Shown here: piece after piece, positions 1,688 to 45,596 of the stretch
How positions within the stretch are numbered: the stretch's first letter is position 1
How the letters are laid out: every line of letters begins with the position of its first letter
Notes under the pieces: model-generated
Told to the model about the DNA's origin: nothing
The model's input: only the letters and a program-made list of their open reading frames with translations
Databases searched by the model: none
Assembly: GCA_040954595.2 (NCBI GenBank)
Contig: CM082595.2
Span: forward strand, 6,164,137 to 6,228,136
Source of the DNA: Balanoglossus misakiensis
Lineage: Eukaryota; Animalia; Hemichordata
Reading direction: 5' to 3'
DNA length: 64,000 nt
Translations under genes and position numbers: made by a program

Positions 1688-2365
1688 TTAATCCAAGTCT
1701 CTCAGCTTATAAGTGTACACTTTTGTGTACAGTCTAAAGAACGGGAAGAAAGACATCATTTTACATGATTTCACTTTGAAACCTGACCTTTCCAGCACAC
1801 GCTGGGCAGCAACTTGAGATTCACTGGCACTGCACATAATTTTCTCATACGGATTACTCAGGCCGAACCGTATTGCTGCCGCCACCAGCATGGCACCGAT
1901 CCCGGATCGCCGATGGAAGCGGGAAACGCTCAGTGTTTGCAGTTCGAGGGTCAGAGGGTCCACTTTCATGGGGCTGACCGAGACGGTCCCGACGACTTCG
2001 CCGTCCTCCTCGGCGACGAACATCTGGGCCTTGCGGTTGTCGATGTAGGTGCGCTTGATGTCCCGCAGGTCGGTCATCATCCGACGCTTGGCGTAGGCGG
2101 CGCTCTTTATGTACCCGACCACGTACATCACGGCGACGGTGGCGACGATCACCGAGCCGGATATGACAAAGGACCGGAACACAGCCCAGGCCATGAACGC
2201 CACCAGTGTGATGTATACCCTGGCCGACTGGCGGTGCAGAAAGACATGGAAGATGTCTTGCGAGTTGTCGATGCAGCCATCTCGAAATACTTTCAGGGCT
2301 GCGTGGATGTCTCGTCTTTCGCAGGGCCTTACCTTTATCCCAGGGTCAGTTGCATGGGAAAACAT
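1688..2365 (-). CDS. NAT8/camello-like GNAT N-acetyltransferase, 225 aa, single coding exon
   Basis: N-terminal hydrophobic membrane segment, then FVAEEDGEVVGTV, an acetyl-CoA motif (LSVSRFHRRSGIGAMLV) and AAQRVLERSGF. Confidence 0.85.
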   Translation of the reverse strand: MFSHATDPGIKVRPCERRDIHAALKVFRDGCIDNSQDIFHVFLHRQSARVYITLVAFMAWAVFRSFVISGSVIVATVAVMYVVGYIKSAAYAKRRMMTDLRDIKRTYIDNRKAQMFVAEEDGEVVGTVSVSPMKVDPLTLELQTLSVSRFHRRSGIGAMLVAAAIRFGLSNPYEKIMCSASESQVAAQRVLERSGFKVKSCKMMSFFPFFRLYTKVYTYKLRDLD

Positions 2366-3291
2366 TGCTGGTTTGATTCCAACTCTAAATCAAGAAACAG
2401 AACATAATAAATTTGATAACATATCACAACATTGTAAACTCCAGTCCTGTCACAATTTTGATTACGTAGCTGAGGTATCGTGTCGTCTTGATCGTGTCTT
2501 GAACAAATACACGCTATAAACCCGGCCCACAGGGACGACTGCCCAATACAATCATTCGCAGATCTCACATTCTCAGCTGCCATACGCGAAACTACAACCA
2601 CGCATAGATCATGTAGGTCGGTAGCATTATTGCACGTCGCACCCAACAAAGGGCTTTGATTGTCTAACCCCTCCAGCACTATGGTTCGGTCCAAATTCAT
2701 TGTTTTCTACGGTAATTTTGGACCTCTAAAGAGGGAAGTGGGGTGAAAGGGTTTGCATTGGGGGTTCCTAACTTGCAAGGGATTATCGCCTCCGAGACGG
2801 CGTTGACTTGCAATCGTCTATCTGCAGTCATTGGATGATATATTTTACACTGGTATGATTGATTATGATACTCACTAGTCCACCTTGGAGGTGATCTCGA
2901 CTAGGCCACAATCTTTGACGCCTGTGGCTAAACCATAAACATGTTAGTTTGCAGAGAGCCTCATCGAGTCGACCCACATACACAGTGCACCTCGCATGAA
3001 GGGGTCAAAGTTCGACTATGCCTCCCTAAGCCACTTACGATTGTTTCCGATTGTTTACTGGTATTATAAAACTTTTCACGGCGAAGTGAATGTTTATATC
3101 AATTTAAATTAATGATTCTAAAAAAATAATCAACCGAGATACCGTACAAATGCAACTCTAGCGAAAAAGCGACACATTATTCGTACAGTTTCAAAGTTCT
3201 GACCCCCTAGCACAGTACGTTCGGCTCTACTCGTTGTGTGTTCGGCTTTTGTCGACGTGTCCATTTCCTTTTCTCACTCAAAGCGATCAAG

Positions 3292-10752: not shown

Positions 10753-13716
10753 TTACGCCACCTGCGGTAACTCTGGTATTCCGTATGTTTTTGGCAAATC
10801 TCGGAGCATATTTAGCGTCTCCTCTCGCTCGTCTGAAGCGGCGTCCACCTCATCTCCTCCGTCCAAGGGCGTTGCTGAAACTTCCAGACTCTTGCGTTTC
10901 CTGCGGACCGTTATCAGGAATCCGATGATGTTGTCTAATACGTCACTTTCAATCGCTATTCCATTCGACTGGCTGACCTGTTCATGAGTAGGAAAAGATG
11001 AGACAAACAAACAAACAAACGGGAAGACAGACAGACAGACGGAAGGACAGATAACCAGACAAAGACAGCGAGAGAGAGAGACAGAGAAACAGAGAAAATG
11101 GTGAGTCACAAGAGACAGACAAGGAGAGTGAATCTATGATGTACATGTACTAGTATACAAATTCAATTGCAAAGAAATGTGATAATACAGGGAGAAGTCT
11201 AGTATCGAGGGCGGGAAGATAAACATTAACACGCTTGTAACATTTGTGCTGTTTAACCATAGACAGTGCTGTCTATGGTTTAACACGACGGGCCATGTGT
11301 TGTTTGTCCAGCATCTCATGAGAATTTCCTCCGATCAAATCTGCCTAGTCATGCGAGATCTCGCAGGTTCTCAGGGAGTTGAGGAAACGGTCTATTGCTT
11401 CAGCACCACCCATCACCCCAACACCATCCATAATATTATCAGGGACATTACATCTTACCCTGTGGAGGAAGTTGGCCAAGCAGATCTCCATGTGTCCCCA
11501 TTGCGGTATCAAATCTTCACGCTTTACGGCCGATAGATTTGCACTGCCTTGGTAGACGTGGTCGAAGGTCTCGCAGATCAACAGATAACACAGAAGAAAC
11601 GTGTTTTTCTACATAAAATATATAATTGTCTGATTTTAAATCCATACTCTGTACATTTTCTCGAGAGGTTAGCCGACGTCAGAATAGCAATGACAAACTG
11701 GTTCCATACATTCAGCTACATTTTTCATTCTTAGCAAATACTTCGTCCGCTTTTTCTCATAGAAATTAATCGTCATTTTGGGTACTTGGAGAGCAAACAT
11801 AGTTGCTTGTGGTTGCAGAGTAAAGACGAAACTGTCGTAAAACTGGTTTAAAATCTTATCTACCAGTATGGGATTCATCATACGTTAGTCGTAGTACCAA
11901 CAGAAATGCTGGAAGCGGTACTAGAGGCAAAATTTGACCTACCCTGGCTAATACATCAATCTTGGAGACCTCGCTTTCGGCGTCGCACAATATGGAGGCG
12001 ACAGATCGTGACATGAAAGCCACCACAGTGTTGTACACCAGTATGTCTTGTGACGTCAGCACTTCTGCATTGAGGAGTTTGCTCAGTGCGGGTTCTGCTG
12101 TGTCGAGCAGCCAGACACAGACTGAGTCCGGGATGCCGGGCATGGGGCCGTCGTCCAGCAACTCCAGGACATAAGAAGGCACGGCCCACTGAGAAGGTAG
12201 AGTTGACGAGTGTTTAATATGCAATCACATTACACACGTACATTAGCCGTTCTTCTGATATCAATAAGACAAGCAGAGGCTACTCACCGATGAAGCAGCA
12301 TCGACTTCATCACCGCCATCGCCAACGCTGACTTCGGCGCCTTTCGTTTGTATACACTTGAACGCACTCATGGGGGTCATTCTTGATTGCGCATTTTTAC
12401 GAGAAACCCTGCAATGTAACAATTTATATACATTTGCACATTTATTAATTTGATACTACTGAATGTGTCATTACTAGAGAAACGAACGGACTGACCGGCG
12501 GAAGTCGGACAGACAGACGTCTAGACAAACAAGCAGACATATTCAAACAGGCAGACAGGCAGACAGAGATGGTAGTGGTGGCGGCGGAGGTGGTTATGTC
12601 TATTTACCTCACAAGGGAGACCATCGCTTCTACAAGAGGCACACAATACTCGATACAGCGGCGACCGGGAAACTCTCCCTCAGACGTGTATTCACACAGG
12701 TATCTGTTGACAAAGAAAGTGAAGAATCCGTTGCCGAGGTTTCTACATGAAAGCGACTTTTCTCTGGAGTTGCAGGCAGCCAGCACATACGTCGATGCGT
12801 CCATCGTCTGTCCCAGGAGATTGTGGGCGAATTTTCCTGCGAAGCAACAGTCCAGAATCATGATGACGTATTTGGCCTTGGCTCCCTTGACAGCCTCATT
12901 CAGATCGGAGACTGTTATGACTGATTCCCTCGTCTTGTTGTAGTCGGCAGGTACCAGCACCGTCTCGCCTTCAGCCGTCATTAAGCAATGGCCGGAAAAG
13001 TGAAACACCAGCACGCCATCGCTGGGCACTTCTCGCGCACAGACTTTCAGGGATGCCTTGACCATGTTCCCGTTGGCTGGAGTTTCGCAGTCGTCACTTG
13101 TGAATAATCTGACGTGATCCTGGATAAGAAAAATAACACATAAGGTTGTGTTCAACACAATTGTCAGGAAAATTTAGCAGCTGAAGACTTGGTCATCATG
13201 CTTAAAAAACTTTCCAAGGATTATGTCAATGTTCCTGGGCCAAGTGTTCTAAAAAGAACATTCCATTTCACAGTGACTATATCAGTAGCACTTCTACGTT
13301 ACTAAAGCTTATACTATCCTTTTCACTCAACTTACCTCTGGGAAACCCAGGTGATTTGTCAGTGTGTCGTATATTGTGGACGCATCATTATTAGCTGAGG
13401 CCCCAAGGTCAGCCACTGACACATGCAGTTGTTTACCGACCCCTATTTGGTGGAGAAAAGCACGAAAAGCATGAAATTTATAAGCCTGATTAAGACACAA
13501 ATTCATAATGCATAACATCTGGAGACACGATAATTACACAAGAGTGCAGATGTTGCTTCAGGCACCTGTAAAATGAGTTTCTGTACCTGCACAGACGGCG
13601 TAACTGCTTCCGGCGTTGTACTTAAAGTTTTCTTCCGGGGCGAGGAAGAAGTTCGTCCAGTCTTCGTATTCATCTCGCTCGATACTGTGATTCTTGCGCG
13701 AATGGCTGCTGCCCAT
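10753..13716 (-). CDS. Metacaspase/orthocaspase-like (peptidase C14, clan CD) protease copy A, 496 aa, 7 exons
   Basis: Exons 13716-13587, 13442-13336, 13119-12608, 12408-12288, 12188-11943, 11608-11459 and 10977-10753 join in frame (1491 nt). Motifs: YAVCAGV...LGASANNDASTIYDTL...LGFP, VLVFHFSGHC, VIMILDCCFAG, VLAACNSREKS...NGFFTFFV. N-terminus MGSSHS. Confidence 0.88.
11251..11284. mobile_element. 20-bp TIR-only transposon remnant with 7-bp TSD
   Basis: GTTTAAC + CATAGACAG-TG-CTGTCTATG + GTTTAAC. The paralogous site in copy B (about 15880, atttaacacgac) is empty. Confidence 0.8.
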
Positions 13717-14297
13717 GGTAAGCTGATAGCAAAACGACCACAGAAGGGTTATAGAGCGTTAGCGGCAGTAGCAGTAATGGTGTAAATACCGTGAATACCA
13801 CATATACTGTTCTTTTTCCGCAACGACAGAAATACTAAGCTTATCAGCTGTCATGTCATCCACCATATGAAACCACTTTCACTGTAAGACGTACATCAAA
13901 ATCGTGTTTATGTCACTCTAAGGATAGGAACAGTCGCCATCTCTGCTGGAGTATGTATGTCGTCACATCATAGACGCCCAGGGTCACATTGACACCTGCG
14001 TCACCATCGCCTATCTAACGACCGTTGTTTCAGTGCCTTTATACTTATACCTTGACGTGACCCAAATCTTTCTACGCATGTCATGTGACACAGAGTGTCA
14101 CCAGCCGCAGAGCCTGCAGTGTAGTTCAACGTCTCGGTGCGTGTACTTACCAAAATAAGATGCCTTAACCAGTTAAACGGTGTTCGAAGGTGTCCAGCGG
14201 TGTTATATGTACCGTGCGGCTCGTCATGTGATGCTTTGAGACTACTGGAAAGTTGATAAGAATATCTCGTGATCTAACACGACCACTCAATTCTGCC

Positions 14298-14455
14298 GGG
14301 GCTTTCCAAGACGCCATAGCTGCCCAATGACCCAGCTGCTAAAATAATAATGATTTCATTGTCACACCCCCTGACCCTCGCCAATTCGGGCTACCCACGT
14401 CAGACCTCCCTTACAAAGTTTTGACAGGGCTGTTTTAAGTGGCAAGGGAGTTTCC
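14298..14455. promoter_or_regulatory. Two kappaB-consensus sites upstream of protease copy A
   Basis: GGGGCTTTCC (14298-14307) and GGGAGTTTCC (14446-14455) match GGGRNWYYCC. Both are conserved upstream of copy B. Confidence 0.5.
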
Positions 14456-15226
14456 GAACACAAATGGACAGGCACGACGAACCCGGAAACACACAGTTTT
14501 ATTTATAATAGATTTAGAAATCATGAGACATTATGGTCATACTGATAAGTTATTACCCATATGGTTTATCAAACTAAAGATATGGACTCGTGCCAAAAGA
14601 GTGCATGATGTCATGTCCCACAATGTGTTTTGCAAATGGTCAATTATATGGAACGTTAAAGCCCATCATCAATGAGCCATTTTTCATCTGCTATTTACAT
14701 GTAGTTGTTTATACCACTTCTACATAAACCAAAACCTTCACGAAGTTGGTGTTTTATTTTTAAACAATCGCGTCAGTTTCGATGGGAGGCAGATTTAATG
14801 TACTATTTCACTATTCGTAAAACGAGATCGCCGACTTTACAATTTAACTTGAATTCAGTTAAGACATATTTGAATTCTATTTGACTTAAAGCTGTCATGG
14901 TCGGACGAGAGAAATAACTTGTTTATCTTTCAAAGACACATGTAAATACATGTATAGGCACTTTAACATATGTAGTTAAGCAATAAGCACTATATTCCTG
15001 TTTCTTTTAAGTGGAAACTTAACCACAGCGACCACCGTATATTACAAACCGAAGCACTCAAGAAACCTGTCAACACCCTAAAGGCTTGGTTACACGTCTC
15101 TCGACATGACATCCGTATAATGATTGGAATACAATATTTCCATAAAACTTAAAACACGGAGAATAATACACGAACAGTGACTATCAAATCAAAATGAGAT
15201 CTTCCTGACTGAGTTTTGCCATACAG

Positions 15227-15488
15227 TTACGCCACTTGCGGTAACTCTGGTATTCCGTATGTTTTTGGCAAATCTCGGAGCATATTTAGCGTCTCCTCTC
15301 GCTCGTCTGAAGCGGAGTCCACCTCATCTTCTCCGTCCAAGGGCGTTGCTGAAGCTTCTAGACTCATGCGTTTCCTTTGGACCGTCCTGAGGAATCCGAT
15401 GATGTTGACAAATACGTCACTTTTGGGTGCTATTCCATTCGACTGGCTGACCTGTTCACGAGTAGGAAAAGATGAGACAAACAAACAT

Positions 15489-15522
<34 letters not shown>

Positions 15523-18500
15523 CGACAAACGGAAGGATTGACGGACGGACGGGCGGACAGTTAACCAGACAAAGACAACGAGAGAGAGACCGAGACTCAC
15601 AGAGAAACAGAAAATGGTGAGTCACGAAGACAGACAAAGAGATTGAATCTATGATGTACTGGTATGCAAATTGCAAAGAAATTTGAATCGGATAATACAG
15701 GGAGAAGTCCAGTATAAACGAAACAATTAAATATGTCATTCTCTATTTAGTTTCTCAAACGTTCAAGAAAGAAATTATACAAATTATACTAGTCACAAAC
15801 TAAAACACATGTATTGAGTATACTAGTACATCTGAGAGGATTGGAAGATGAACATGAACACTCGTGTAACATTTGTGCCATTTAACACGACAGGCCATGT
15901 GTTGTTTGTCCAGTGTCTCATGAGAATTTCCTCCGATAAAAACTGACTAGTCATGCGAGATCTCGCAGGTTCTCGCTCTATTGCTTCAGCACCAACCACC
16001 ACCCCACCCCAACACCATCCCTATCATTATCAGGGACATCACATCTTACCTCGTAGAGGAAGTAGACCAAGCAGATCTCCATGTGTCCCCATTGCGGTAA
16101 GAAATCTTTACGCTTTACGGCCGATTGATTTGCACTGCCTTGGTAGACGTGGTCGAAGGTCTCGCAGATTAATAGATAACACTGAAGAAACGTGTTCTTC
16201 TACATAAAATATATAATTATCTGATTTTAAATCCATACTCTGTACATTTTCTCGAAAGGTTAACCGACGTCAGAATAGCAATGACAAACTGGTTCCATAC
16301 ATTCAGTTACATGTGTCATTCTTAGCAAATACTTCGTGCACAGACATTCATAGTTGCTTGTGGTTGCAAAGGGGAAGACGAAATTGTCGTAAAAATGGTT
16401 TCAAATCCCATCTACCAATATGGGATTCATCATACGTAAGTCGTAGTACCAACAAAAATGCCGAAAGCTGTACGAGAAGCAAAATTTGACGTACCCTGGT
16501 TAACTTGGACACCTCGCTTTCGGCGTCGCACAATATGGAGGTGACAGATCGTGACATGAAAGCCACCACAGTGTTGTATACCAGTATGTCTTGTGACGTC
16601 AGCACTTCGGCATTGAGGAGTTTGCTGAGTGCGGGTTCTGCTGTGTCGAGCAGCCAGACACAGACTGAGTCCGGGATGACGGGCATGGGGTCGTCGTCCA
16701 GTAACTCTAAGACATACGAAGGCCCGGCCCACTGAGAAGGTAGAGTTGACGAGTGTTCAATATGCAATCCCATTACACACATTAGCCGTTCTTCTGATTT
16801 GAATAAGACAAGCAGACAGACAGACAGACACTAGACAGACAGAGCTACGACAATAGCTCAATTGGTATACCATGTGAGCTAAAATTGACCAGGACTACAA
16901 TTGTCATGCATGGTTAAAAGGGGACAGACATTCCACTCACCGATAAAGCAGCATCGACTTCATCACCGCCATCGCCAACGCTGACTTCGGCGCCTTTCGT
17001 TTGTATACACTTGAATGCACTCATGGGGGTCATTCTGGATTGCGCATTCTTACGAAAACTCCTGCAATGTAACAATTTATAAACATTTGTACATTTAATA
17101 ATTTGATACACTCACCCACATAAATCAGACATATTACTGAATGTGGGTTTTGAATGTGTCATTACTAGAGAAACGGACGGACTGGCCGGCGGAAGTCGGA
17201 CAGACAGACGTCCAGACAAACAAGCAGACATATTCAAACAGGCAGACAGGCAGACAGAGATGGAAGTGATGGCGGCGGTGGTGGCGGCGGTGGTGGTGGT
17301 GGTGATTATGTGTGTCTATTTACCTCACAAGGGAGACCATCGCTTCTACAAGAGGCACACAGTACTCGATACAGCGGCGACCGGGAAACTCTCCCTCAGA
17401 CGTGTATTCACACAGGTATCTGTTGACAAAGAACGTGAAGATTCCGTTGCCGAGGTTTCTGAACGAGAGCGACTTTTCTCTGGAGTTGCAGGCAGCCAGC
17501 ACATACGTCGATGCGTCCATCGTCTGTCCCAGGAGATTGTGGGCGAATTTTCCTGCGAAGCAACAGTCCAGAATCATGATGACGTATTTTGCCTTGGCTC
17601 CCTTGAGAGCTTCATTAAGATCAGAGACCGTTATGAGTGATTCCCTCGTCTTGTTGTAGTCGGCAGGTACCAGCACCGTCTCGCCTTCAGCCGTCATTAA
17701 GCAATGGCCGGAAAAGTGAAACACCAGCACGCCATCGCTGGGCACTTCACGCGCACAGACTTTCAGGGATGCCTTGACCATGTTCCCGTTGGCTGGAGTT
17801 TCGCAGTCGTCACTTGTGAATAATCTGACGTGATCCTGGATGTTAAAAGAAAAAGAACACATAAGGGACCGTTCAGTTTTTACGGCCGGGGGGGGGGCGG
17901 CAAAATCCAGGGGGGGGGGGGGGTCACTTAAATTTTGAAGTCCACAAAAGGGGGGGGGTCATCTGTTTTTTTTTAAACGTTTAGGGGGGGTCACATACTT
18001 TTGCCACCGAACTTTTGCTTTTGAGTCCACAAAATTGCAGTTTCGCACCCTTTATTTTACAAAATTTTCTTATGTGAGAGGGGGACACCCCCTCCTACAC
18101 CCACCCCCTCCATTCTTCGCCACATTGCATTTATTCACTGGTTTGTCTAGTGTACCAGGGAAGACTTCTTGCCACCCCACCCCCACCCCGATGCTTACTT
18201 TGAGTGGAGTGGCAAAATTAAAATTTGTCCTCCCTAACATTGAGTTAATTTGCTTTTGAGTTCATTAAATTGCAACTTTGAGCACCGTATTTTACAAAAT
18301 TTTCTTATGTGGGATGGGGACATCCCCTCCCACGCCCACCCCCGCCACTTTTCTTGTTTTACCGATTCTAGCAACTATTGTATTGACTTGTCATTTTAAT
18401 TTGTTCATAGATACAGTGTACATAGGATCAGGACGGCGAATGTTTTGGGCGTGGGGGGGTCATCATATTTTTGGGTCTGTCAAAGGGGGGGGGGGGTCAT

Positions 18501-19446
18501 CAATTTTTGGTCCTGGGTGAAGGGGGGTCGGCCTGATTTTGAGAACCGATGACACAAACTTGCCGCCCCCCCCCCCCTGCCGTAAAAACTGAACGGTCCC
18601 TAAGGTTGTGTTCAACACAATTGTCAGGAAAATTTAGCAGCTGAAGACTTGTGAACTTGGTCATCCATGCTTAAAAAAACTTCCCAAGGATTATGTCAAT
18701 GTTCCTGGGCCAAGTGTTCTAAAAATTACATTCCATTTCACAGTGACTATATCCGTAGCAATTCTACGTTACTAAAGCTTATACTATCCTTTTCACTCAA
18801 CTTACCACTGGGAAACCCAGGTGATTTGTCAGTGTGTCATATATTGTGGACGCATCATTATTGGCCGAGGCCCCAATGTCACCTACTGGTGAGACATACT
18901 GTTGTTTACCGACCCCTGTTGGGTGTATAAAAACACAAAAATCGTGAAATTTAATTCCCAACAGCTTGCTTCTAACAGGATCTCCAATCAATAGGCCTGA
19001 TTATAACACAAATCCATAAATCATAACATGTGGAGACAAGTTGGTAGCCAAGTACGTGTCATACTGTACTATAGTCAAGCCTTGTGTGCAAATACAATAG
19101 GCGTGGGTGTATCCTGTGGAACATGGTCCACATAGACTGCCTAGTCGTACGAGATCTCGCAGTTTCTCGTCGAGTTCTGAAAATGGTCTATTGGCACAGA
19201 CACTCACAGGATGCCAAGTGGGGATAAACGACAATTTAGTACATCCCAGAGCTCACATGACAGGTGTAATCACCCCTATATGTTGCTTCGGGCACCTGTA
19301 AAATGCGTTTCTGTACCTGCACAGACGGCGTAACTGCTTCCGGCGTTGTACTCAAAATTTTCTTCCGGGGCAAGGAAGAAATTCGTCCAGTCTTCGTATT
19401 CATCTTGCTTGATACTGTGCTTCTTGCGCGAGTGGCTACTGCCCAT
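15227..19446 (-). CDS. Metacaspase-like protease copy B, 494 aa, 7 exons (recent tandem duplicate of copy A)
   Basis: Exons 19446-19317, 18915-18806, 17835-17324, 17061-16941, 16731-16495, 16199-16050 and 15451-15227 join in frame (1485 nt). HFSGHC and LDCCFAG are intact. Confidence 0.88.
17865..18600. mobile_element. 736-bp PIF/Harbinger (Tourist)-like MITE in intron 2 of protease copy B
   Basis: TIRs GGGACCGTTCAGTTTTTACGGC / GCCGTAAAAACTGAACGGTCCC, flanked by a TAA TSD (17862-17864, 18601-18603). Copy A has the empty site cacaTAAggttgtg at about 13137-13150. Confidence 0.92.
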
Positions 19447-19996
19447 GGTAAGCTGATAGCAAAAGACCACAGAAGGGATATTATAGATCGTTAGCCGCAG
19501 TAGCAGTAATGGTGTAAATACCGTGTATACCACATATACTGTTCTTGTTCCGCAACTACAGAAATACTAAGCTTATCAGAATCAGCAGTCTTGTTATCAC
19601 CCAACATATAAAGCCACTTTCACTATAAAGACGTACATCAGAATCGTGTTTATGTTGCACTGAGGATACGAACAATCCCCATCTCTGGAGTATGTATGTC
19701 GTCACATCATAGAGGTCCATCCCGTTGTTTCAGTGCCTTTATACTTACCTTGACGTGATTCAAATCTTTCTACGCAATGTCATGTGACATAGAGTGTCAC
19801 CAACCGCAGGGCCTACGTTGAGTTCAATGTCTCGGTGCGTGTACTTACCAGAATAAGATGCCTTAACCAGTTCGAAGGTGTTCAGTTGTTAACGAAATAG
19901 CGTGAAATGTACCGTGCGGCTCGTAATGTGACGCTTGGAGACTACTGGAAAGTTAATAAGAAGATCTCGTGATCTAACACGGCTATTCACTCTGTC

Positions 19997-20158
19997 GGGG
20001 CTTTCCAAGACGCCATAGTTGCTGAATGACGCAGCTGCTAAAATAGAACTGTTTTCATTGTCGCAACCCCTGACCCTCACCAATTCGGGTTAGGCTACCC
20101 ACGTCAGACTGGCCTTTCGATGTTTTGACAGGCTGTTTTAAGTGGCAAGGGAGTTTCC
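19997..20158. promoter_or_regulatory. Two kappaB-consensus sites upstream of protease copy B
   Basis: GGGGCTTTCC at 19997-20006 and GGGAGTTTCC at 20149-20158. Confidence 0.5.
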
Positions 20159-20929
20159 GAACACTTCTACATAAACCGAAACCTTCACGAAGTTGGTGCA
20201 ATAAAATTTTATTTTTAAACAATCGCGTCAGTTTCGATGGGAGGCAATTTATAAAGGTATTGTTCCACAATTCGTACATCGAGATCCCCTACGTCACCGG
20301 TGAATGTACCATTAAACTTGAATTCAGTTAAGACGTATTTGAATTCTATTTGACTTAAAGCTGTCATGGTGAAAAGAGAGAATTAACTTGTTTATCTTTC
20401 AAAGACACATGTAAATACATGTATAGGCACTTTAACATAATGTAGTTTAGCAATAAGCACTATATTCCTGTTTTTTTTAGTGGAAACTTAACCACAGCGA
20501 CCACCGTATATTACAAACCGAAGCACTCAAGAAACCTGTCAACACCCTAAAGGCTTGGTTACACGTCAACAGTGAACATGTCTCATCCAACAAGAAGGTC
20601 TCTGGTTTCGAGAAGTATAAAAGACATTTAAAATAATACTGTTGTAACATCTGGTTGTTATGGAATGCTCTATCAGGAATGTTGCTCCAACCAGCTTCCA
20701 AGAACTCGTGAGTTCGTGCCCGTTATCCACATACGTGCACATACGTTTCTGTTGACAAATAATTGCAGTGTCTGATATAAAATATTAATTGCTTAAAATT
20801 GCACATGCTGTATGAAAGATTAATAATTGGGAACTTGGTTACCAGCACGAATTCGAGAATGTACATATATATATAGAAAAAATACAAGTTTTTAGTACAG
20901 CAGTGTCTGTACATCTTTCACGTAAACAA

Positions 20930-23900
20930 TCATTCAATTTGTGGTAGCTCTGGTACACCACAAAGCCTTGGCAGATTTCGAAGAATTTTCAACGCCTCTA
21001 AGCGGTCGCTTGAAGCAGAATCCACCTCGTCCTCGTCATCGTCGGGTGGAATGTTCTTCCTCGATCCTCGACACCTCTCCCTTGCGTACACCAGCCTCGT
21101 CAGGAGTCCGATGATGTCCGCAAACAACTCCTCCCCGAACTCAACACATTTGGCGTGGCATACCTTTGGGGGAGTAAAGACAGAAAACGTAATGATTGCT
21201 GAACCTAAACGTGAAAGTAAGGTTATCGTAGTTAAAGGCGCTTTTCAATTTTAAGTGATTCTTTCAATGTGTGTAAGTGGTCATTGTCGTCAGTTGTCAT
21301 TGTCATCATCACCACCATCACCACGATATATGTGGTTTGACTTACCATCTTGACATAGTTCACCAGAGAAATTTCCATGTGGGCCATCTTGGGCATCAGG
21401 TCTGGATTGCAGCGGTCGACACGGTCAAGGGTCTCGCAAATACGCAGATAACACACAAGGAATGTGTTACCCTGAAAATAGAAAACAAAATCTAACCACC
21501 ATTCCTAGATTCATTACTTTTTTGGATAGACTGCTTTGACCCATTCACTTAGTCACTGCAATGACTACGCAGTTTCCAATTTATTTTCTAATTAAATAGT
21601 ATTTTGTTATATTTCAGTTACGAAACAGTAGAGAGCTTTCACAACAAGCATCCAAAAGACCAAAATAACAACTGCACACCTTTGCTAAAACATTTATCTC
21701 CGAGATCTCGCTTCCAGAGTCACACAGTATGGCGGCAGCCGACTGTGACATCATCGCCAGCACAGCTGAGAACATGTCGCGTGTGGTCAACACGCATGCG
21801 CCGTGAAGATCTCGGAGTGCCGGCTCCGCGGAGTTTACCAACCAATCACAGAGTGAGTCCGGCATGACGGGCATGGTCTCGCCTTTGGTGAACAGGTTTA
21901 GCACATATGATGGGACTGTCCACTGTACGGTGAGGAAAAAGACAAGTGAGAGTTATTGTAATAGTTTATCAGGATGTTAGGTACGTAGCCAATATCAACG
22001 AAGTAGTCATTAGAGGAATTACGTATTTCAAGTGCCAAGGAGTTGATTCTCTCTAACTACTGCATCTTCGAGGCTTTTTGCCCGTCTGTCTGTTTGTCTC
22101 TCTCTCTCTCACAACATTACACGAGTTGTGTGTATCGTCCATTGGAGGGCGCACTTCCAATTAACTCACCGCCAATGCAGCATCAACTTCATCATCACTG
22201 ACACCACTCTCTACCATAGTCTCAATTGTCTGAACGCTCTTAAACCCGCTCATCGGTGTCATCATGTACACGTCTTTGCGTATGGGCCTGCGATAGACAG
22301 CAACGTTCAGTTAATTCGTATGGCAGGTGTCCGGCATATCGTAGTACATATAATGCTTCTCATCACAAGCAAAGTTATGTTTGTTTAGTTGAATGTCAAG
22401 TTTTTTTTCTTTCATTGAATTATAGCACCAAATGACTTCACTCAGATGTCAGTTATTGTCGGTGACAATGATAGTCATAGCAACTCAGATGACCATGGTA
22501 AAAACTCCTTGGATAACCATGGTGATGACAAGGAGAAGGTGAGCAGGATGAGGAAGGAGCAATGATAACGGGTAAGTCATGTCCCACCCAATTGGGTTTT
22601 CCTGCTCTATTCCCTGTCATTATACAAGCATTCAGCCTATCAGTGATGTCGTCTCTCAGTGTAGTTGTCGGCATTGCTGAGAGAGAAAAAACACCCATTG
22701 GGTGTTCCTAGTGTATTCCCTGTCATTATACAAGCATTCAGCCTATCAGTGATGTCGTCTGTCAGTGTAGTTGTCGGCATGGCTGAGAAAAAAAAAACAC
22801 CCAATTGGGTGTTCCTAGTGTATTCCCTGTCATTATACAATAATTCAGCCTATCAGTGCTGTCGTCTGTCAGTGTAGTTGTCGGTGTGGTCGAGAAAAAA
22901 CAACATTTACCTCAGAAGGGCTGTCATCGCCTCTACCAGCGGTTCGCAATAGTCGATACAGCGGCGACCAGGAAACTCCCCGGGCGAAGTTTGATCGCGC
23001 AGATACCTGTTGACGAAAAACGTGAAAAATCCGTTGCCGAGATCGGCAAACGAGAGCGACTTCTCCCGCGAGTTGCAGGCGGCCAGGATGTACATGGAGG
23101 CGTCCAACCTGTGCCCGAACAGCAGATCCTGCGCAAATTTCCCGGCGTGGCAGCAGTCCAGGATCATGATGACGTATTTGGCCTTGGCTTCTTTGAGGGC
23201 CTCGTTCAGGTCGAACACGGATATCAGTGAGTCCCAGGACTTGTTGTAGTCGGCGGGCACCAGCACTGCCTGGCCCCTCGCCTTGTTGCAGTGTCCGGAG
23301 AAGTGAAAGAGCAGGACTCCGTCGCTTGGCACGTCCCTGGCGAATACTTTCAGCGAGGCTTTGACGATGTCTCCTATCGCCGGTGTTGTATTGCTTGTAA
23401 ATAGTCTAACGTGGTCCTGATTCAAGCAAATAGGGGAGAATAAGTGAACTGCAACCATTTTATATTAAAATCAAGCGAATACTTTATGGCTACAGTTATC
23501 CCAGAATAGTTCCAAAGACGCGGCTACAGTGCCTTAAAAATCCAAACGTTCCACAGTGCCTCGCATTTTGCATTCCAAATTACCCAATGGCTAAACGAAT
23601 ATAGACATTGGGGTCATAAGTCAACGAAATAAGTTCACCTTTTCCATAATAACTTTATTCGAATCACAGTTAATTTACTTACAGTCGGGAAACCGAGATG
23701 ACTAGTGATTGTGTCATGTATCACGGATGCGTCATTGTCGGCGGCAGGTCCTAGGTCGCTTGCCGCCACGTACAGTTGTTTCCCTACGCCTGTTAGAATA
23801 TTGTGAACAATATATATAGCTTCGGTACAGTGTTAAAGTTCTCGTTTATGGGTTATATAGAATTTAGAATATTCAGAATCCGCCAAATGACTTTGAGGAA

Positions 23901-24197
23901 TACGGAAGAGAGACGCGACAGTTTGAAAAAAACGCGAGGGCACTCTCAACTTCGTCACTCATCAGAATTCAAACCAATTGCATTATACGTCAGTGTATTG
24001 CTTTCGACCGATGTGTTCTATGGTTTTGCTTGATTCGTACCTGCACACACGGCGTAGCTGTTTTTCGCATTATACGTAAAATTTTCTTCGGGCGTCTGGA
24101 AGATGTTCACCCAATCCTCGTAGCGGTTTCTCTTCCAGAAAATCGCCTCTTCATCGGAATCCGTTGCTGGACTCTCGTCTGATAGGGTACCTCCCAT
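20930..24197 (-). CDS. Metacaspase-like protease copy C (older, diverged paralog), 496 aa, 7 exons
   Basis: Exons 24197-24041, 23789-23683, 23416-22911, 22287-22170, 21922-21680, 21471-21346 and 21163-20930 join in frame (1491 nt) with the same intron phases as A and B. Motifs: MGGTLS, AADNDAS, LFHFSGHC, ILDCCHAG. Confidence 0.88.
22586..22905. repeat. About 107-bp tandem repeat, 3 copies, in intron 3 of protease copy C
   Basis: The unit ccca(a)ttgggt...ttccctgtcattataca...gcctatcagtgatgtcgtctgtcagtgtagttgtcgg occurs three times. Confidence 0.9.
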
Positions 24198-26541
24198 CTT
24201 TAGCTAGAAGAAAGAAAAAGAAAGATTTAATTTTCGCTCGTCTTGTTGAATGCATAATAGGGGCAGATCACCTTCGATAGTCTCTGTCATTCAATTGAAA
24301 ATCTAAATTATAGACCTCGCTCTCCGACGGTATTTTTAAAAAAAAAATTTATATTGTTGCTTCTGTTGTTGTTGTAGCCCGGAGACCAGGGCGTCGATTC
24401 TGAGGATTATGATGATCTTGCTGTTGATGTTGTTATTGTTGTTGTTGTCGGTATAACTAGAGACCAATAGACAGACCTATGACGATTTACTACATCATAC
24501 ATGTATATTTTTATTGCAAATGGATACATGTGAAAAAGGTCACCACTATATTAATTATATGCATAACTATATTAATTATATGCAGACGTGTTTTACAAAG
24601 GGAAATTACGTCACGTCCCGAAGTCACAATTGCTGCGGGAAACGATGCGCATCCCTCCAGTTAGAAATGGTTGCGCCCAGCATCGCATCTCAAGGTCATC
24701 TGGCCGGGGTATTAAGGTCGTACTGGTGGAATGACTCAATAAAAACATCATGAAATGCAAATTCGGTTTCCTCGCCCAAGAATCGAGAATAATTTGAGCG
24801 AAACTTACCGCGGTATCGTCGGACATGATTGTCAGACACTTATTAAAGCAGAAGCTCTATGATATCACCCTGGTTTTGTCCCACACAGATTTTAACAGCT
24901 GTGTTGAAAATAAATCCTGCCGTAAACACAGTTTACCACTAACAGTGTCCCAAAAGGTTTGGTCGACTACTGTTATATAAGCTTTACCGTCGTTTGTCAC
25001 TTGTTAGCGACCACCTGCTCTAGATCATCATGTGCTAAGCCTATTTCACTAGCTATTGCGCAGAGCTTAGATCATGGCTGACTTTGGTGAGTTTCACTGG
25101 TGGAGTGCAAAGGTGGTGTTTGTGCAGCGTCGTTCCAATATAACAAATCATCACAAATGACACATTTATCATGATCTGTACAGTTGTAAACCACTGTTGT
25201 AAACACGAGTAAAAGCGATGAGTGTATGATCAAAAACAATGGATACGTGTGGTGTGGTGTGGTCGGGTTTGTCGTGCCATTATCCGGAACTTAAAGGTTT
25301 CATACGAACACAAGGGTTCTCCTTAGAAAGCAAAAGTTCCGGGTGGGCTATGTCGTCGCGATTGTGTGCAAACTCACCTGCCGAGTGTGTTCCTCGTCTA
25401 TAAGTTACACCATTTCATGGAAAATCGGTTTAATGAAGATCAGCGTGATTATTATGACTCAATGTTACACAAATTCACACCCTTTGACCCAGTGTGTCAT
25501 CAAACACCAGTATGGACTGGTCGCCATCTCTGAACTGGAAATGTCAACAAATAATGATCGACCGTGAACAGCTGGTCATTGACCTATACCACGAGAGGGC
25601 GCCATTGCATGTCGTTCGGAATGACTGACAGCGCGCGAAACAGGGACAGATGATCCAGGTACCCTCTTTTGGGGGTGCCCGGATGTACTTCCGATAGTAC
25701 ATTGTATCAATAATGCAATCTTACATAAGGATATGATCACTCATTAAATTTAAAGTTTGCGTCTGCGCCAATTCCTTGCTTTCTCATGACTTTCATCGAA
25801 CTCAGCGTCAAGCAACTTTTAGCAGGTACAAGCTCTGATATTTTGGGCCGTCAAACTTGAAGTTTCGGAGTTACTTGGCAAATGTAGAAAGACATATTAT
25901 TAAGGTGCGTAGACAAAAATCTTTCCTAAGGTTATTTAATTCCATGTTTTCGCTTTCTCTTTGCGCCTCCTTCCCAAATTGCATCGCGCATCCTACCACA
26001 CCGAATTCTCCGTTGAGATCCTAGTACAACGTTGTGTTAATTAAAAAAAAATCCTTTGAGGCCAATTAACGAAGAAACAACTGATCGCTTTGAAAATACA
26101 AGTTCAACGAAAACACGTAGCTATTTCAGAATTTACCTATGTTGTAGTTGTAGTAGTAGTATCTGGGTGATGAATTCATTGCGCGTCACGGTCGTTAAGC
26201 AGAAATCGATCTGTTCCGCATACACTGTCGACGCATTCTCTCACTTACAGTTTTATTGGTACAAAGTGGGGCCAATCTCACCGAATCTATGGTTCCTTTC
26301 CTTATACTGAAATGCTCAAATATTATCTCCAGTGTTTTTCCGTGGATAGTTACTTGAAACATATCACCCTCCTAGATAAAATCATGTCGGATAGTGTGAG
26401 TGTGTAGTGTTTTAAAGACAAAAACGTTTATCTATATTAATTGCGTCGACATAGTTCATTTATTGGAGTCGTATTTGACTGCGGCTTTACTAGCACACAT
26501 CACACAAGTAATAAAACGTTTACAGGTCTCTTGATCAAGGT

Positions 26542-29500
26542 ATGGCTACATGTTTCGAAGTGGATAATGGCGTCGACGCCGTCTATGATATCGATCTCAG
26601 TGATCATCATTTGGAGGAGGTACTAGACGACATTACCAATCTCCCTAATTTGAAGAAGCTGTCTCTCGCCAGAAATTGCATTTCCATGCTGCCGCCATCT
26701 TTGTTTTCGTTGCACCAGCTGACGACACTGACTCTGAGCGAGAACAACATCAGCGAAATCCCGCGCGATATCGGACTTCTGAAACACCTGGAGTATTTGA
26801 ATTTGTCCCACAACCACATCAAGTCAGTGCCGCTGAGTTTATTCACTCTGACCGAATTGACGGAACTCAAGTTGAAAGACAATAATCTGGTCACAATACT
26901 GTCCAACATTAAAAAACTTCAAAAATTGCAACATCTTGACCTCAGCGATAACCGCATACAGCACATCCCGCTGACGTTCTACACACTGGAAGAGCTGACG
27001 TCACTGCGTTGCGAGGGCAACGACCTGGTGAAAATTTCACCCCATGTCAGCAAGCTGAAGAAACTGGCCATTCTAGACTTTTCAAATAATCAAATACGGG
27101 ATATACCGTCAGCCCTTTACACGTTGCCGGCGCTGACAGAATTATACATGGACGACAACAACATATCTATTGTCCACCCGGACATCAGCGAGTTGCGGAA
27201 ACTGGAAAAACTCTCTCTCAGTAATAATAAAATACAAAAGATACCATCCACGCTGTTTTCTCTCGATCACGTTACCACCATCCATCTGGCGCGTAATAAA
27301 ATAACCATTGTTTCGCCAGAGAACTTTACAGCCCAAAAGCTGTGCCTGTTGGATTTAACTGACAACCATATTCACACAGTACAGCACACACTTTTCAAAT
27401 TTCCCGCGCTGACGACACTTTACATCGGCGGGAACAAGCTGGGCGGTCTGTCAGCGTCGATCGGCAGCCTATCGAAGCTTGCCGTTTTCGACGTATCCGG
27501 TAACGAAGTGACGGAGCTGCCGCCATGTTTGTTCAAGCTTCACGATCTGTGCGAGTTGTACGTCAACAACAACGAACTGAGGAGAGTCTCTTCCAAACTC
27601 GGAAATCTGAGGAAGCTTCGGAAGCTGGATTTGGCGCAAACTCGACTGCACGACGTTCCTACTGGGGTCTTCAAACTGATACTTCTCACCCATCTGTCGT
27701 TGCGGGGCAACAGGCTCACCAGGATTCCATCCGACTTGGGTAAACTGAGAAACCTCGATATGTTAGACATATCGAATAATCAACTCTATGAAATACCAGC
27801 CGCTGTTTTCACGCTAGTAGAGTTAAGAAAGCTGTCCCTAAGCGGAAATTGCATTATCCATATCCCTGACTGCATCAGCGCGTTAACCAAGCTACAGAAA
27901 CTGAAACTTGCCGTTAACAGCATCACCAAAATTCCCGCGTCCACGTGCTCGTTAGCCGAATTGACAGTGCTTGATTTGAGCGGGAATCAACTGCACACAG
28001 TACCAGCTGAAATGGGGAATCTTGAGAAGCTGACATCCCTGGACCTTGCGAAGAACAATATACAAATACTTCCAGCCGATTTGTTTCAGGGTGAGTTTTA
28101 AAGTTTTGAATGAATATATGAATTAATGAATGAATGATGTACGTTGATAGTGAAACTGCCACATCTTTCAACTGAAAAGGACCAAGACAAATTAAAATAG
28201 GATGGACTTCGATAACACGTGATCTGTATAACGAATTGACAACATCATGTTCACCAAATTTATCACATTTTAAATATTTTTATAAGGGAAACTCGAGCAA
28301 CTACGTCATCTGAATATCGGCCAAAACAATGTTTCCCGCCTTCCTCAAGAAATTGGCAATCTGACGACTTTGCGGGAACTGTACGCGAACGGCAATCGCC
28401 TAACAGACGAGGCTTTGCTTCACATCAAGCGACTCAAGTATCTCAAGAAGCTCGAAGTCGGCGACAACTCCATCGGGCGCCTGCCACGGATGTTCAGCAT
28501 CGACATGAAATGGCTGCAGTCTCTGGTCCTGGGCGGCAATCCGATGAGGGTGCCGCCGATAGATGTGTGTGACCGAGGTTTGTCCGCCATTAGACAGTAC
28601 CAGGAAGACTACCCTGATGCAGGTGAGGGCGCTCTTGTCGTTGATAACGATTTTCTTTTTTTGGAGTGGATCGTGAACGGGTTTTCACGTTCATTTGCAT
28701 ACCGACCAAGCAGCAGGCCACTGTCATGACCTCCACGTGACTTTTGCATCATGAGATTTTGTTGGTATGAGTTTATCAATTTGATTAGTGCACTGTAACT
28801 CAACCTGGTACAAAACTGTTCCATAACGTACGTTGCGAAAAGGGTGAATGCTGTAATGTAATGATAAATGACGTGATGCCATGTCACTCAGGGGTCATGA
28901 GAGTGGCCTATTGTGAAGTTGCTGGTTGGTGCACCTGGTTTGGATGACCTTTGTCTGCCATGCCGTCTGTCTGTCTGTCTTCATGAAGCCTTTCTTGCAT
29001 AACACATGATGGTACGAGGAGAGAATTGCTCCATACTTGGGAAGCAATAATTCTCCCCGTCTTCTAACGTCTGTTCCAACTCTCTGCTTTCCATTCAGAT
29101 TCTGCTGCCGAGTGCCAAGCATGTATCATCCACGTTCAGCCGGGCCGACAGGTAATTATATAACTGAGACCCCTTTTGCAGTAACTTTTGCAAAATAATG
29201 TTTCAGTTATACGTTCAATTTTGAATCCACAGTGTATTGTATGTTAGATTAAGACCTGCGTGTGTTGTGTTCAGTTTAAGATCACCTCTTAGTGGCAGTA
29301 TGCCACAATAAGGATAGCGTTCTCTTTATATCGAGTTTATCGTTATGACTTCATTATTTTCTTTGCAGACACAGCACTTTTTGCCCGCCAACTTTTGCCT
29401 CACCATACCGTGCAGTGCCGTGAAGACCTCGGTGGATATTCTGGTCAGGCGTGTGGCAGACGATGACGCCATGACACCAAAGCTTCAGGATTTCGAACAC

Positions 29501-45540: not shown

Positions 45541-45596
45541 TTGTCTAAATGTCGACTTAATATGAGATATCTTACCACAGGAATAAATACACAAGC

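What the first reader, a model, noticed from the sequence alone, without database searches (positions are those of the whole stretch)
10843..22193. Every protease copy carries two perfect DEVD executioner-caspase sites bracketing its C-terminal domain
Seen: six of six positions read DEVD followed by A or S, in acidic low-complexity linkers. Copy A: 12300-12311 (GDGGDEVDAAS) and 10843-10854 (DGGDEVDAAS). Copy B: 16953-16964 and 15317-15328 (GEDEVDSAS). Copy C: 22182-22193 (VSDDEVDAAL) and 21020-21031 (DEDEVDSAS). The motif survives in copy C although the upstream linker residues have diverged. Established: DEVD with a small P1' residue is the optimal caspase-3/7 site. Inference: cleavage after about D286 would separate the protease from the helical domain, and cleavage after about D467 would remove a 29-aa tail. 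A protease with metacaspase-type specificity residues should not cut DEVD itself, so this looks like a relay in which an apoptotic caspase switches a second protease on or off, or releases the helical domain as an effector.
Basis: partly seen in the sequence, partly recalled or inferred. Interest (0 to 1): 0.88.

Follow-up and report, generated by a model that had tools for sequence, protein, structure and literature searches.

The report
Caspase-gated metacaspase-like protease of animals
Three neighbouring genes, most likely of an acorn worm, encode a protease that resembles the metacaspases said to be absent from animals, and relatives from sponges to amphioxus keep caspase-type cutting motifs on either side of an unnamed helical domain, so cell-death caspases likely switch this predicted second protease by cutting that domain out.

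Summary
Observation confirmed and extended. Three tandem 7-exon genes (A 496, B 494, C 496 aa; models from splice sites, no RNA evidence) encode a clan CD C14 protease (His123/Cys171 in A) plus a ~160-aa helical domain. All six DEVD sites are at the stated places (A: D286, D467). A and B are 92% identical, so they are not independent. The closest relatives are Ptychodera flava proteins. HMMER reveals a wider family (sponges, annelid, brachiopod, nemertean, amphioxus). Literal DEVD is mostly hemichordate, but DxxD-[G/S/A] lies in linker 1 of 31 of 94 members (shuffles 4.0, maximum 12) and in the tail of 24 of 77 (4.0, maximum 10), and is not enriched in either folded domain. The S1 pocket is acidic, as in metacaspases, the metacaspase calcium ligands are missing, and 7 of 9 dyad-dead members keep site 1. 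Selection for cleavage by a DxxD-type caspase is likely (~0.85); cleavage itself is untested. Best mechanism (0.42): two cuts excise the helical domain and activate a membrane-anchored Arg/Lys protease. Release of an effector domain, or inactivation, remain open. Ten literature searches found no description; reviews call metacaspases absent from animals.

The parts
10753..13716 (-). Gene copy A, 7 coding exons (13716-13587, 13442-13336, 13119-12608, 12408-12288, 12188-11943, 11608-11459, 10977-10753), 496 aa, starts MGSSHS (predicted N-myristoylation)
   Evidence: GT-AG introns, open frame; 59% identical to P. flava P0002, 57% to P0001
15227..19446 (-). Gene copy B, 7 coding exons (19446-19317, 18915-18806, 17835-17324, 17061-16941, 16731-16495, 16199-16050, 15451-15227), 494 aa; recent duplicate of A (92% aa, dS 0.13, dN 0.04)
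20930..24197 (-). Gene copy C, 7 coding exons (24197-24041, 23789-23683, 23416-22911, 22287-22170, 21922-21680, 21471-21346, 21163-20930), 496 aa; 74% identical to P. flava P0001, 60% to A (dS 1.8, dN 0.28)
12608..13119 (-). Copy A exon 3: core of the C14 protease domain with FSGH (His123) and LDCC (Asp169, Cys171)
   Evidence: Pfam Peptidase_C14 E 3.4e-6, above cut-off; residue mapping
12300..12311 (-). Copy A site 1, DEVD 283-286 followed by AAS, near the end of exon 4, between protease and helical domain
   Evidence: equivalent linker has pLDDT under 50 in the model of P0001
10843..10854 (-). Copy A site 2, DEVD 464-467 followed by AAS, before a 29-aa tail (helix plus Pro-rich end)
16953..16964 (-). 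Copy B site 1, DEVD 284-287 followed by AAL
15317..15328 (-). Copy B site 2, DEVD 462-465 followed by SAS
22182..22193 (-). Copy C site 1, DEVD 289-292 followed by AAL
21020..21031 (-). Copy C site 2, DEVD 464-467 followed by SAS
10890..12188 (-). Copy A exons 5, 6 and start of 7: all-helical domain (about residues 291-450) with no Pfam name, shared by the whole animal family
   Evidence: no Pfam family on exons 5-7 or on this part of 95 members; own profile finds 105 of 169 proteins held; helices in the model

Best explanation
These genes encode a clan CD protease with metacaspase-type active-site residues, predicted to be membrane-anchored and to cut after Arg/Lys, whose helical C-terminal domain is flanked by two conserved DxxD-[G/S/A] motifs that a DxxD-preferring caspase likely cleaves, which would excise the domain and switch the protease on. 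Shown: the domain order, the His-Cys dyad, acidic S1 residues, lack of the four calcium-binding Asp of fungal and trypanosome metacaspases, and selection on both motifs from sponges to deuterostomes. Inferred: N-myristoylation from MGxxxS; basic P1 specificity from the S1 residues; cleavage from the motif match; activation from the missing calcium switch, from the analogy with legumain zymogens (catalytic domain, cleavable linker, helical cap) and from the model's last residues lying where the plant legumain cap lies. On this reading the cut after D286 frees the protease, which stays on the membrane, and the cut after D467 releases the helical domain from the docked tail, so a caspase signal is converted into cleavage of a different (Arg/Lys) substrate set.
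For: Motif enrichment is confined to the two linkers: DxxD[GSA] in 31 of 94 linker-1 segments (shuffles 4.0, max 12 of 1000) and 24 of 77 tails (4.0, max 10); catalytic domain 11 of 94 (13.6), helical domain 4 of 95 (6.1), N-terminus 2 of 75 (1.7); Glu-at-P1 control 6 of 94 (5.2). It holds in each of four groups, including 74 unnamed rows that group with Ephydatia (17 of 74 against 2.4). P2 is Thr or Val in 38 of 49 linker-1 hits; the MEROPS pattern for caspase-3 is D/E/V/D then G or S (PMC3510211 table). Of 11 named non-hemichordate clusters 7 have both sites, 2 only site 2, 2 neither. S1: Asp at the TbMCA2 Asp95 column in 61 of 85 rows, at Asp211 in 89 of 94, never Arg/Lys. Calcium ligands Asp173/189/190/220 (PMC9622860) map to E/E/Q, V/V/V, S/S/F, H/H/Q in A/B/C, and to Asp in 5 of 89, 0 of 91, 25 of 91, 4 of 94 rows. 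Model pLDDT 86, pTM 0.84, linker 287-303 under 50, tail helix 481-490 at 91. Six plant legumain proenzyme chains among the 50 rows align to the model as far as residues 499-501 with cap residues 443-453. Sponge cells show caspase-3/7 reporter signal (10.1101/2021.10.31.466669). MG start in 46 of 95 rows, MGxxx[ST] in 33.
Against: No cleavage or activity data. About half the family lacks site 1 by the looser pattern (46 of 94 have it) and only 26 of 77 rows have both; Lingula and Owenia lack site 1 and two Sycon proteins lack both. Seven of 9 dyad-dead members keep site 1 against 36 of 83 intact ones (Fisher p 0.08), which activation of a protease does not explain. The legumain overlap covers only a few tail residues of a predicted model and the helical domain itself did not align to the cap. 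The reversed-motif control was also raised (15 of 94 against 6.9; 20 of 77 against 8.2), in part because G-D-E-V-D matches both patterns. S1 residues do not always predict P1: a Runella caspase-like (CHAT) protease cuts after Leu (10.1101/2021.06.07.447441). AtMC9 is calcium-independent without a caspase switch (PMC5756287). The [DE]-at-P4 pattern was chosen after seeing the data; family members are related, so shuffle counts are not probabilities.
Confidence: 0.42

Rival explanations
1. The two caspase cuts excise the helical domain as the effector (toxic or signalling fragment), and the protease half serves mainly as its membrane-anchored holder.
For: The sites bracket the domain on both sides; 7 of 9 dyad-dead members keep site 1; the helical domain is under purifying selection (A-C dN 0.37, dS 1.21) and has family-wide conserved residues such as W332, L344, S366, Y425 in P0001 numbering.
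Against: The dyad is intact in 83 of 92 scorable rows and the catalytic domain is the more constrained part (dN 0.18). Dead against intact difference is not significant (p 0.08). No known effector family matched the domain in Pfam.
Confidence: 0.22
2. Caspases switch the protein off: the intact protein is the active form (the helical domain recruits substrates or partners) and apoptotic cleavage dismantles it, as caspases do to several lytic or inflammatory proteins (recalled).
For: The model is confident across both domains (pTM 0.84), compatible with one working unit. Extra copies of the motif in some tails (P0003, P0005, P0022) suit rapid destruction as well as activation. Loss of the sites in about half the family would be tolerated more easily if they were only an off-switch.
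Against: An always-on membrane protease without the calcium site needs some other activator, and none is evident. Two sites placed precisely at the domain borders are more than inactivation needs.
Confidence: 0.2
3. The motifs are cut by the family itself (autoprocessing or paralog-to-paralog), which would mean an unexpected Asp specificity.
For: Clan CD zymogens usually self-process (PMC5756287); caspase-like proteases with unexpected P1 exist; the genes occur in tandem arrays here, in P. flava and on L001.
Against: No Arg/Lys at either S1 column in any row (0 of 85, 0 of 94); the review states caspases are the only C14 members cutting after acidic residues; the motif matches the caspase-3 pattern at P4, P2 and P1'.
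Confidence: 0.07
4. The motifs are not cleavage sites but acidic binding or phosphorylation motifs, or caspase decoy sites.
For: Several lie beside Ser/Thr with acidic residues downstream (DEVD-S-A-S-D; DSDEDD), like CK2 sites (recalled); the reversed control is partly raised.
Against: P1 must be Asp (Glu control null), P1' small in 47 of 71 [TVP]D cases in linker 1 against a background of 0.21, P4 acidic in 50 of 71 against 0.17; hemichordate site 1 (DEVDAA, DVVDAA) has no Ser/Thr inside the motif.
Confidence: 0.09

Closest known systems
Metacaspases (MEROPS C14B; AtMC4, AtMC9, TbMCA2, Yca1)
   Same: Best matches by sequence profile (AtMC4 E 3.8e-12, TbMCA2 3.1e-9) and by fold (AtMC4 Z 22.7, rmsd 2.5, 209 aligned; AtMC9 Z 22.5); ND, SGH and D-x-C motifs; acidic S1.
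   Different: No canonical calcium ligands, no auxiliary Cys (TbMCA2 Cys92), no long p20-p10 linker, an extra helical domain, Asp-type rather than Arg/Lys-type conserved linker sites, and presence in animals, where reviews say metacaspases are absent (PMC5756287, PMC12914765).
Prokaryotic caspase homologues (orthocaspases, metacaspase-like proteins; GSU0716; PADLOC 'caspase' PDLC02987)
   Same: Nearest ESM Atlas clusters are bacterial C14 proteins (0.92); GSU0716 Z 20.8; PADLOC caspase model E 1e-7 to 2e-12 on 5 of 6 proteins; protease fused to a C-terminal domain.
   Different: The helical domain was found in 0 of the 44 non-family HMMER hits, in 1 of 80 metagenome loci (L001, itself a family locus) and not in the one GTDB locus; the animal proteins form their own branch; DxxD motifs are 8-fold rarer in the non-family hits (0.13 against 1.10 per 1000 residues).
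MALT1 paracaspase
   Same: Animal C14B protease with basic P1 specificity; fold Z 20.5.
   Different: Weak sequence match (E 0.08 and above); no death or Ig domains; MALT1 is activated by CARD-BCL10-driven dimerisation (recalled).
Legumain / plant AEP zymogens (C13)
   Same: Clan CD domain, cleavable linker, C-terminal helical domain; fold Z about 20; tail residues overlap cap residues of six proenzyme chains; Pfam C13 weakly on 19 of 95 rows.
   Different: Pfam C14 on 80 of 95 rows; acidic instead of Arg/His S1; no signal peptide but an MG start; legumain self-activates at low pH (recalled).
Caspase-activated substrates with DxxD sites (ICAD two sites, ROCK1, pannexin-1, XKR8, GSDME; all recalled, from no call)
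   Same: Caspase-3/7-type sites in linkers that release an inhibitory or effector part.
   Different: None is a caspase-fold protease of other specificity; no sequence relation was found or sought.

Membership tests
Clan CD family C14 peptidase | Caspase-haemoglobinase fold | tested here: met
   Model residues ~50-286 align to AtMC4 Z 22.7, MALT1 20.5, caspase-8 entry 4jj7 19.6; Pfam C14 on 80 of 95 rows
Clan CD family C14 peptidase | His-Cys dyad | tested here: met
   H123/C171, H124/C172, H130/C177; both present in 83 of 92 scorable rows
Metacaspase (types I-III) | Acidic S1 pocket (TbMCA2 Asp95, Asp211) | tested here: met
   D63/D169 in A; 61 of 85 and 89 of 94 rows; the two residue numbers as S1 residues are recalled, the acidic pocket is from PMC5756287
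Metacaspase (types I-III) | Calcium-binding Asp173, Asp189, Asp190, Asp220 (TbMCA2 numbering) | tested here: not met
   0 of 4 in each window copy; mapping rests on a profile alignment, and the Asp220 column is by offset from the catalytic Cys. AtMC9 is a calcium-independent exception
Metacaspase (types I-III) | p10-like region with two extra strands that block dimerisation, and 280-loop | tested here: inconclusive
   The model aligns through to the end of the AtMC4/AtMC9 p10 region (54-284 to 1-410), but strand-by-strand topology could not be inspected without coordinates
Metacaspase (types I-III) | Cleavage after Arg/Lys | not testable with these tools
   inferred from S1 only
Caspase (C14A) | QACxG motif and basic S1 pocket | tested here: not met
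   LDCC at the catalytic Cys; no QACRG in any frame of the window; no Arg/Lys at the two S1 columns
Paracaspase (MALT1 type 1) | Death and Ig domains around the protease domain | tested here: not met
   No such Pfam family on 95 rows; C-terminal domain all-helical in the model
Legumain (C13) | LSAM cap fold in the C-terminal domain | tested here: inconclusive
   Only a few tail residues aligned to cap residues; the domain was not folded and searched alone
Caspase-3/7-type substrate | DxxD-[G/S/A] in an exposed disordered linker | tested here: met
   Motif; site 1 linker pLDDT under 50, site 2 in a coil between helices
Caspase-3/7-type substrate | Actual cleavage by a caspase | not testable with these tools
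   needs an assay

The most novel reading that the evidence does not exclude
An ancient arm of animal cell death or immunity, present since the sponge-bilaterian ancestor and lost from the usual model animals: a caspase-to-metacaspase relay in which caspases cut out a new helical domain from a myristoylated Arg/Lys protease, activating the protease at the membrane and possibly releasing a second, unknown effector.
Probability: 0.4. Interest if true: 0.92.

Novelty: new variant of a known kind. Interest (0 to 1): 0.82.

Why it matters
Reviews from 2017 and 2025 state that metacaspases are absent from animals. Here is a family of metacaspase-type proteases, with its own unnamed domain, in three sponge classes and five bilaterian phyla, and it carries the signature of control by caspases. 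If the cut activates it, this is a protease relay that joins the two branches of C14 in one pathway and shows how early animals may have wired an older Arg/Lys protease under the newer Asp-specific caspases. The claim is cheap to test: commercial caspase-3, two Asp-to-Ala mutants and a fluorogenic Arg substrate.

Tried and rejected
No whole genome is held for this window, so the animal's own caspases and further copies could not be searched. No RNA holder was listed; this says nothing on expression. The word-based protein search found only P. flava proteins twice (5 of 252 and 5 of 7997 candidates) and added one unnamed fragment with the 95-row profile, so it could not map the range; the range rests on the best 150 of 2776 HMMER hits and 20 cluster look-ups, 12 with an organism name. 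Absence from cnidarians, echinoderms, molluscs, arthropods and vertebrates is therefore not shown, only not seen. The first fold with 5 sequences was poor (pLDDT 46) and was not used. The complex predictor was not available, so the contact between protease domain and helical domain or tail was not tested. The helical domain could not be folded alone (both jobs used); whole-model searches of PDB and BFVD were filled by the protease domain; the ESM Atlas gave no usable feature hit and TM under 0.5 for residues 305-468: its fold is unassigned, not shown to be new. Gasdermin, HeLo/MLKL and death-domain identities were considered; no Pfam match supports them, which is inconclusive. An IQ-TREE bootstrap run timed out; supports quoted are FastTree 0.996 (150 rows) and SH-aLRT 94 (56 rows). 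Contamination or a prokaryotic origin of the window genes was rejected: spliceosomal introns, animal neighbours, 1 distant GTDB locus among 155 candidates without the helical domain, 0 of 86 viral candidates. A recent internal duplication making the two sites of copy A alike (DGGDEVDAAS twice) was rejected: 7 of 10 codons differ silently. Earlier findings of the scan: none. Literature: ten searches gave no paper whose listing, or passages where read, describes this family; only open-access text was searched and no supplements were read, so a mention in a supplementary domain table (for example of PMC8195603) is possible.


Full report
What is in the window. They belong to three tandem genes with the same seven-exon plan and the same intron phases (1, 0, 2, 0, 0, 0); all 18 introns are GT-AG and the frames are open. 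The proteins are 496, 494 and 496 residues. In copy A the sites are 283-286 and 464-467, leaving a 29-residue tail. A and B are 92% identical (dS 0.13, dN 0.04), C is 60% identical to both (A-C dS 1.8, dN 0.28), so all three look functional but A and B are not independent. The models come from splice signals and agree in length and alignment with RefSeq models of Ptychodera flava; no RNA evidence was available. The closest relatives are five P. flava proteins with consecutive accessions XP_070561528-34; copy C is 74% identical to one of them. The host is therefore most likely a hemichordate (inference).

Is the motif more than chance? Two DEVD arose in 5 to 8 of 100,000 shuffles of each protein. 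Between A and C, site 1 has no amino-acid change and site 2 one (at P1'), while about half the non-synonymous positions differ in the linkers just upstream. In P. flava site 1 reads DEVD-A in 2 and DVVD-A in 3 of 5 proteins; site 2 reads DEVD-S in 4 of 5, the fifth ends before it, and two carry repeated copies. Three of the P. flava records are labelled isoforms of one locus, so they too are not fully independent.

A family across animals. phmmer over 1.84 billion representatives gave 2776 hits, of which the best 150 were returned. A profile of the helical domain alone found 105 of the 169 proteins then held, the three window copies and cluster members included. Twenty clusters were looked up; 12 carry an organism name, all animals: Branchiostoma lanceolatum, Owenia fusiformis, Lingula anatina, Tubulanus polymorphus, P. 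flava, Sycon ciliatum (4), Oscarella pearsei, O. lobularis and Ephydatia muelleri. Most other members are unnamed metagenome proteins that group with Ephydatia and are probably demosponge genes (inference); their tails may run into introns. The catalytic domains of the family form one branch against the other hits (FastTree 0.996; SH-aLRT 94 on 56 rows), with bilaterians apart from the sponge groups, which suits descent from the sponge-bilaterian ancestor with many losses; transfer was not tested. The alignment A2 has 95 rows: 90 chosen by the helical-domain profile and 5 shorter family members; isoforms, cluster members, the window models, 15 short fragments and 44 non-family hits were left out.

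The motif in the family. With the prior pattern DxxD[GSA], 31 of 94 linker-1 segments match (within-segment shuffles: mean 4.0, maximum 12 in 1000) and 24 of 77 tails (4.0, maximum 10). The catalytic domain (11 of 94 against 13.6), helical domain (4 of 95 against 6.1) and N-terminus (2 of 75 against 1.7) show nothing. Allowing Glu at P4, a pattern I chose after looking, gives 46 of 94 and 31 of 77. Glu at P1 shows no clear enrichment (6 against 5.2; 13 against 8.7). The reversed motif is partly raised (15 against 6.9; 20 against 8.2) (all). The enrichment holds separately in hemichordates (6 of 6), other bilaterians (2 of 4; tails 4 of 4), the Sycon/Oscarella group (6 of 10; 4 of 7) and the unnamed group (17 of 74; 11 of 60). 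P2 is Thr or Val in 38 of 49 linker-1 hits, P3 most often Glu. Examples: amphioxus DVVD-G and DAVD-G, Tubulanus DDVD-G and DAVD-G, Oscarella DEAD-G and DEPD-G, Sycon DSPD-G and DTID-G, Ephydatia DETD-G and EECD-A; Owenia and Lingula have only site 2, two Sycon proteins neither. Literal DEVD occurs outside hemichordates in only two family rows, P0015 and P0032. Both sites occur together in 26 of 77 rows. The pattern matches the MEROPS pattern for caspase-3, D/E/V/D then G or S (PMC3510211, table passage). It does not name the caspase: coral DXXDases are CARD-bearing enzymes (PMC7586219, passages), and the reconstructed ancestor of effector caspases was promiscuous (10.1101/749143, passages). 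Sponge cells light up with a caspase-3/7 reporter (10.1101/2021.10.31.466669, passages).

The protease. Exon 3 carries Pfam Peptidase_C14. The family profile matches metacaspases best (AtMC4 E 3.8e-12, AtMC9 8.9e-10, TbMCA2 3.1e-9, Yca1 4.5e-5; MALT1 0.08). The AlphaFold model of P0001 on A2 is good (pLDDT 86, pTM 0.84) and matches AtMC4 (Z 22.7, rmsd 2.5, 209 residues) and AtMC9 (22.5) ahead of GSU0716, MALT1, legumain and caspases (20.8 to 19). His123 and Cys171 are present in A, and the dyad in 83 of 92 scorable rows. Asp63 and Asp169 sit at TbMCA2 Asp95 and Asp211; these columns hold Asp in 61 of 85 and 89 of 94 rows and never Arg or Lys. The four calcium ligands of TbMCA2 (PMC9622860, passages) are absent from all three copies and mostly from the family, so the usual metacaspase switch is likely missing. 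A and B start MGSSHS, C MGGTLS; 46 of 95 rows start MG, 33 of them MGxxx[ST]: predicted N-myristoylation.

The helical domain and tail. In the model the protease ends near residue 286 (P0001 numbering), 287-303 is low-confidence coil holding site 1, helices run from 310 to 465, site 2 lies in the following coil, and a tail helix (478-488, pLDDT about 91) and Pro-rich end follow. No Pfam family names the domain. It was not found in the 44 non-family hits, in 79 of 80 metagenome loci, or in the one GTDB locus. In the structural alignments six plant legumain proenzyme chains reach model residues 499-501 with cap residues 443-453, whereas mature legumains stop at 284. That hints that the end of the tail lies on the active-site face, but it rests on a few residues of a predicted model.

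How it most likely works. Selection for cleavage by a DxxD-preferring caspase is the only reading that explains Asp at P1 and P4, Thr/Val at P2, a small P1' and the restriction to two linkers; I put it at about 0.85. What the cut does is open. I favour activation of a zymogen (0.42): no calcium site, a legumain-like plan, a docked tail. Two sites would be needed because the helical domain is tied at both ends, by linker 1 and by the tail. Release of the helical domain as effector (0.22) explains better why 7 of 9 dyad-dead members keep site 1 (against 36 of 83; p 0.08). Inactivation (0.2) explains better why half the family has lost the sites. Self-cleavage (0.07) and non-cleavage roles (0.09) fit poorly.

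Comparison and novelty. It works like a metacaspase in its pocket and like a caspase-activated substrate in its linkers. It is a C14 peptidase, but not a caspase or MALT1-type paracaspase, and it fails the calcium-site test for types I-III metacaspases, so I call it metacaspase-like. PMC5756287 and PMC12914765 (passages) state that metacaspases are absent in animals. Passages of PMC8195603, PMC13303787, PMC10959488 and PMC5520454 do not mention such a family; the other papers listed in the ten searches were seen as listings only. Closed-access papers and supplements were not seen. Verdict: real feature, new variant of a known protease kind with a likely new regulatory link; interest 0.82.

Noticed in passing
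window 26515-42716 (+): LRR gene (528-aa exon at 26515-28101) followed by ZU5-like exons and a Death domain exon (42408-42716); the ZU5-like exon near 29318-29743 recurs at about 31575, 34381 and 37142. ZU5 label is my reading, LRR and Death are Pfam hits.
   Followed up: partly
window 45561-52928 (+): Second LRR plus Death domain gene with a single 1115-aa LRR exon; PIDD-like architecture (recalled label), close to the protease cluster.
   Followed up: partly
window 29675-39418 (-): Four tandem NNMT/PNMT/TEMT-family methyltransferase genes in ~2.8-kb repeats, 93-96% identical, nested on the opposite strand inside the first LRR-Death gene.
   Followed up: no
window 10825-10863 and 12288-12320 (-): In copy A both sites read DGGDEVDAAS, with 7 of 10 codons differing silently; in B and C site 2 reads EDEVDSAS.
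   Followed up: yes
P0105, P0114, P0123, P0133 (tree): A clade of pseudo-proteases (His to Ser/Pro, Cys to Ser/Ala) that keeps the helical domain and, in 3 of 4, site 1; possible decoys or regulators.
   Followed up: partly
L001 1-3668: Two tandem family genes readable as single long ORFs, each with site-1-like motifs (ETVD-A; DMVD-A and EMTD-G), suggesting few introns in this lineage.
   Followed up: partly
window 17960-18600 and 22585-22903: Intron 2 of copy B holds a ~750-bp insertion relative to A; intron 3 of copy C holds a ~107-bp tandem repeat.
   Followed up: no
window 1688-5793, 55095-56237, 60900-61259: Ordinary neighbours: GNAT acetyltransferase, TRAP-gamma, rhodopsin-family GPCR, sulfotransferase.
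   Followed up: no
P0175 (Ephydatia muelleri, 726 aa): Family member with about 270 extra N-terminal residues; a fusion or a merged gene model.
   Followed up: no
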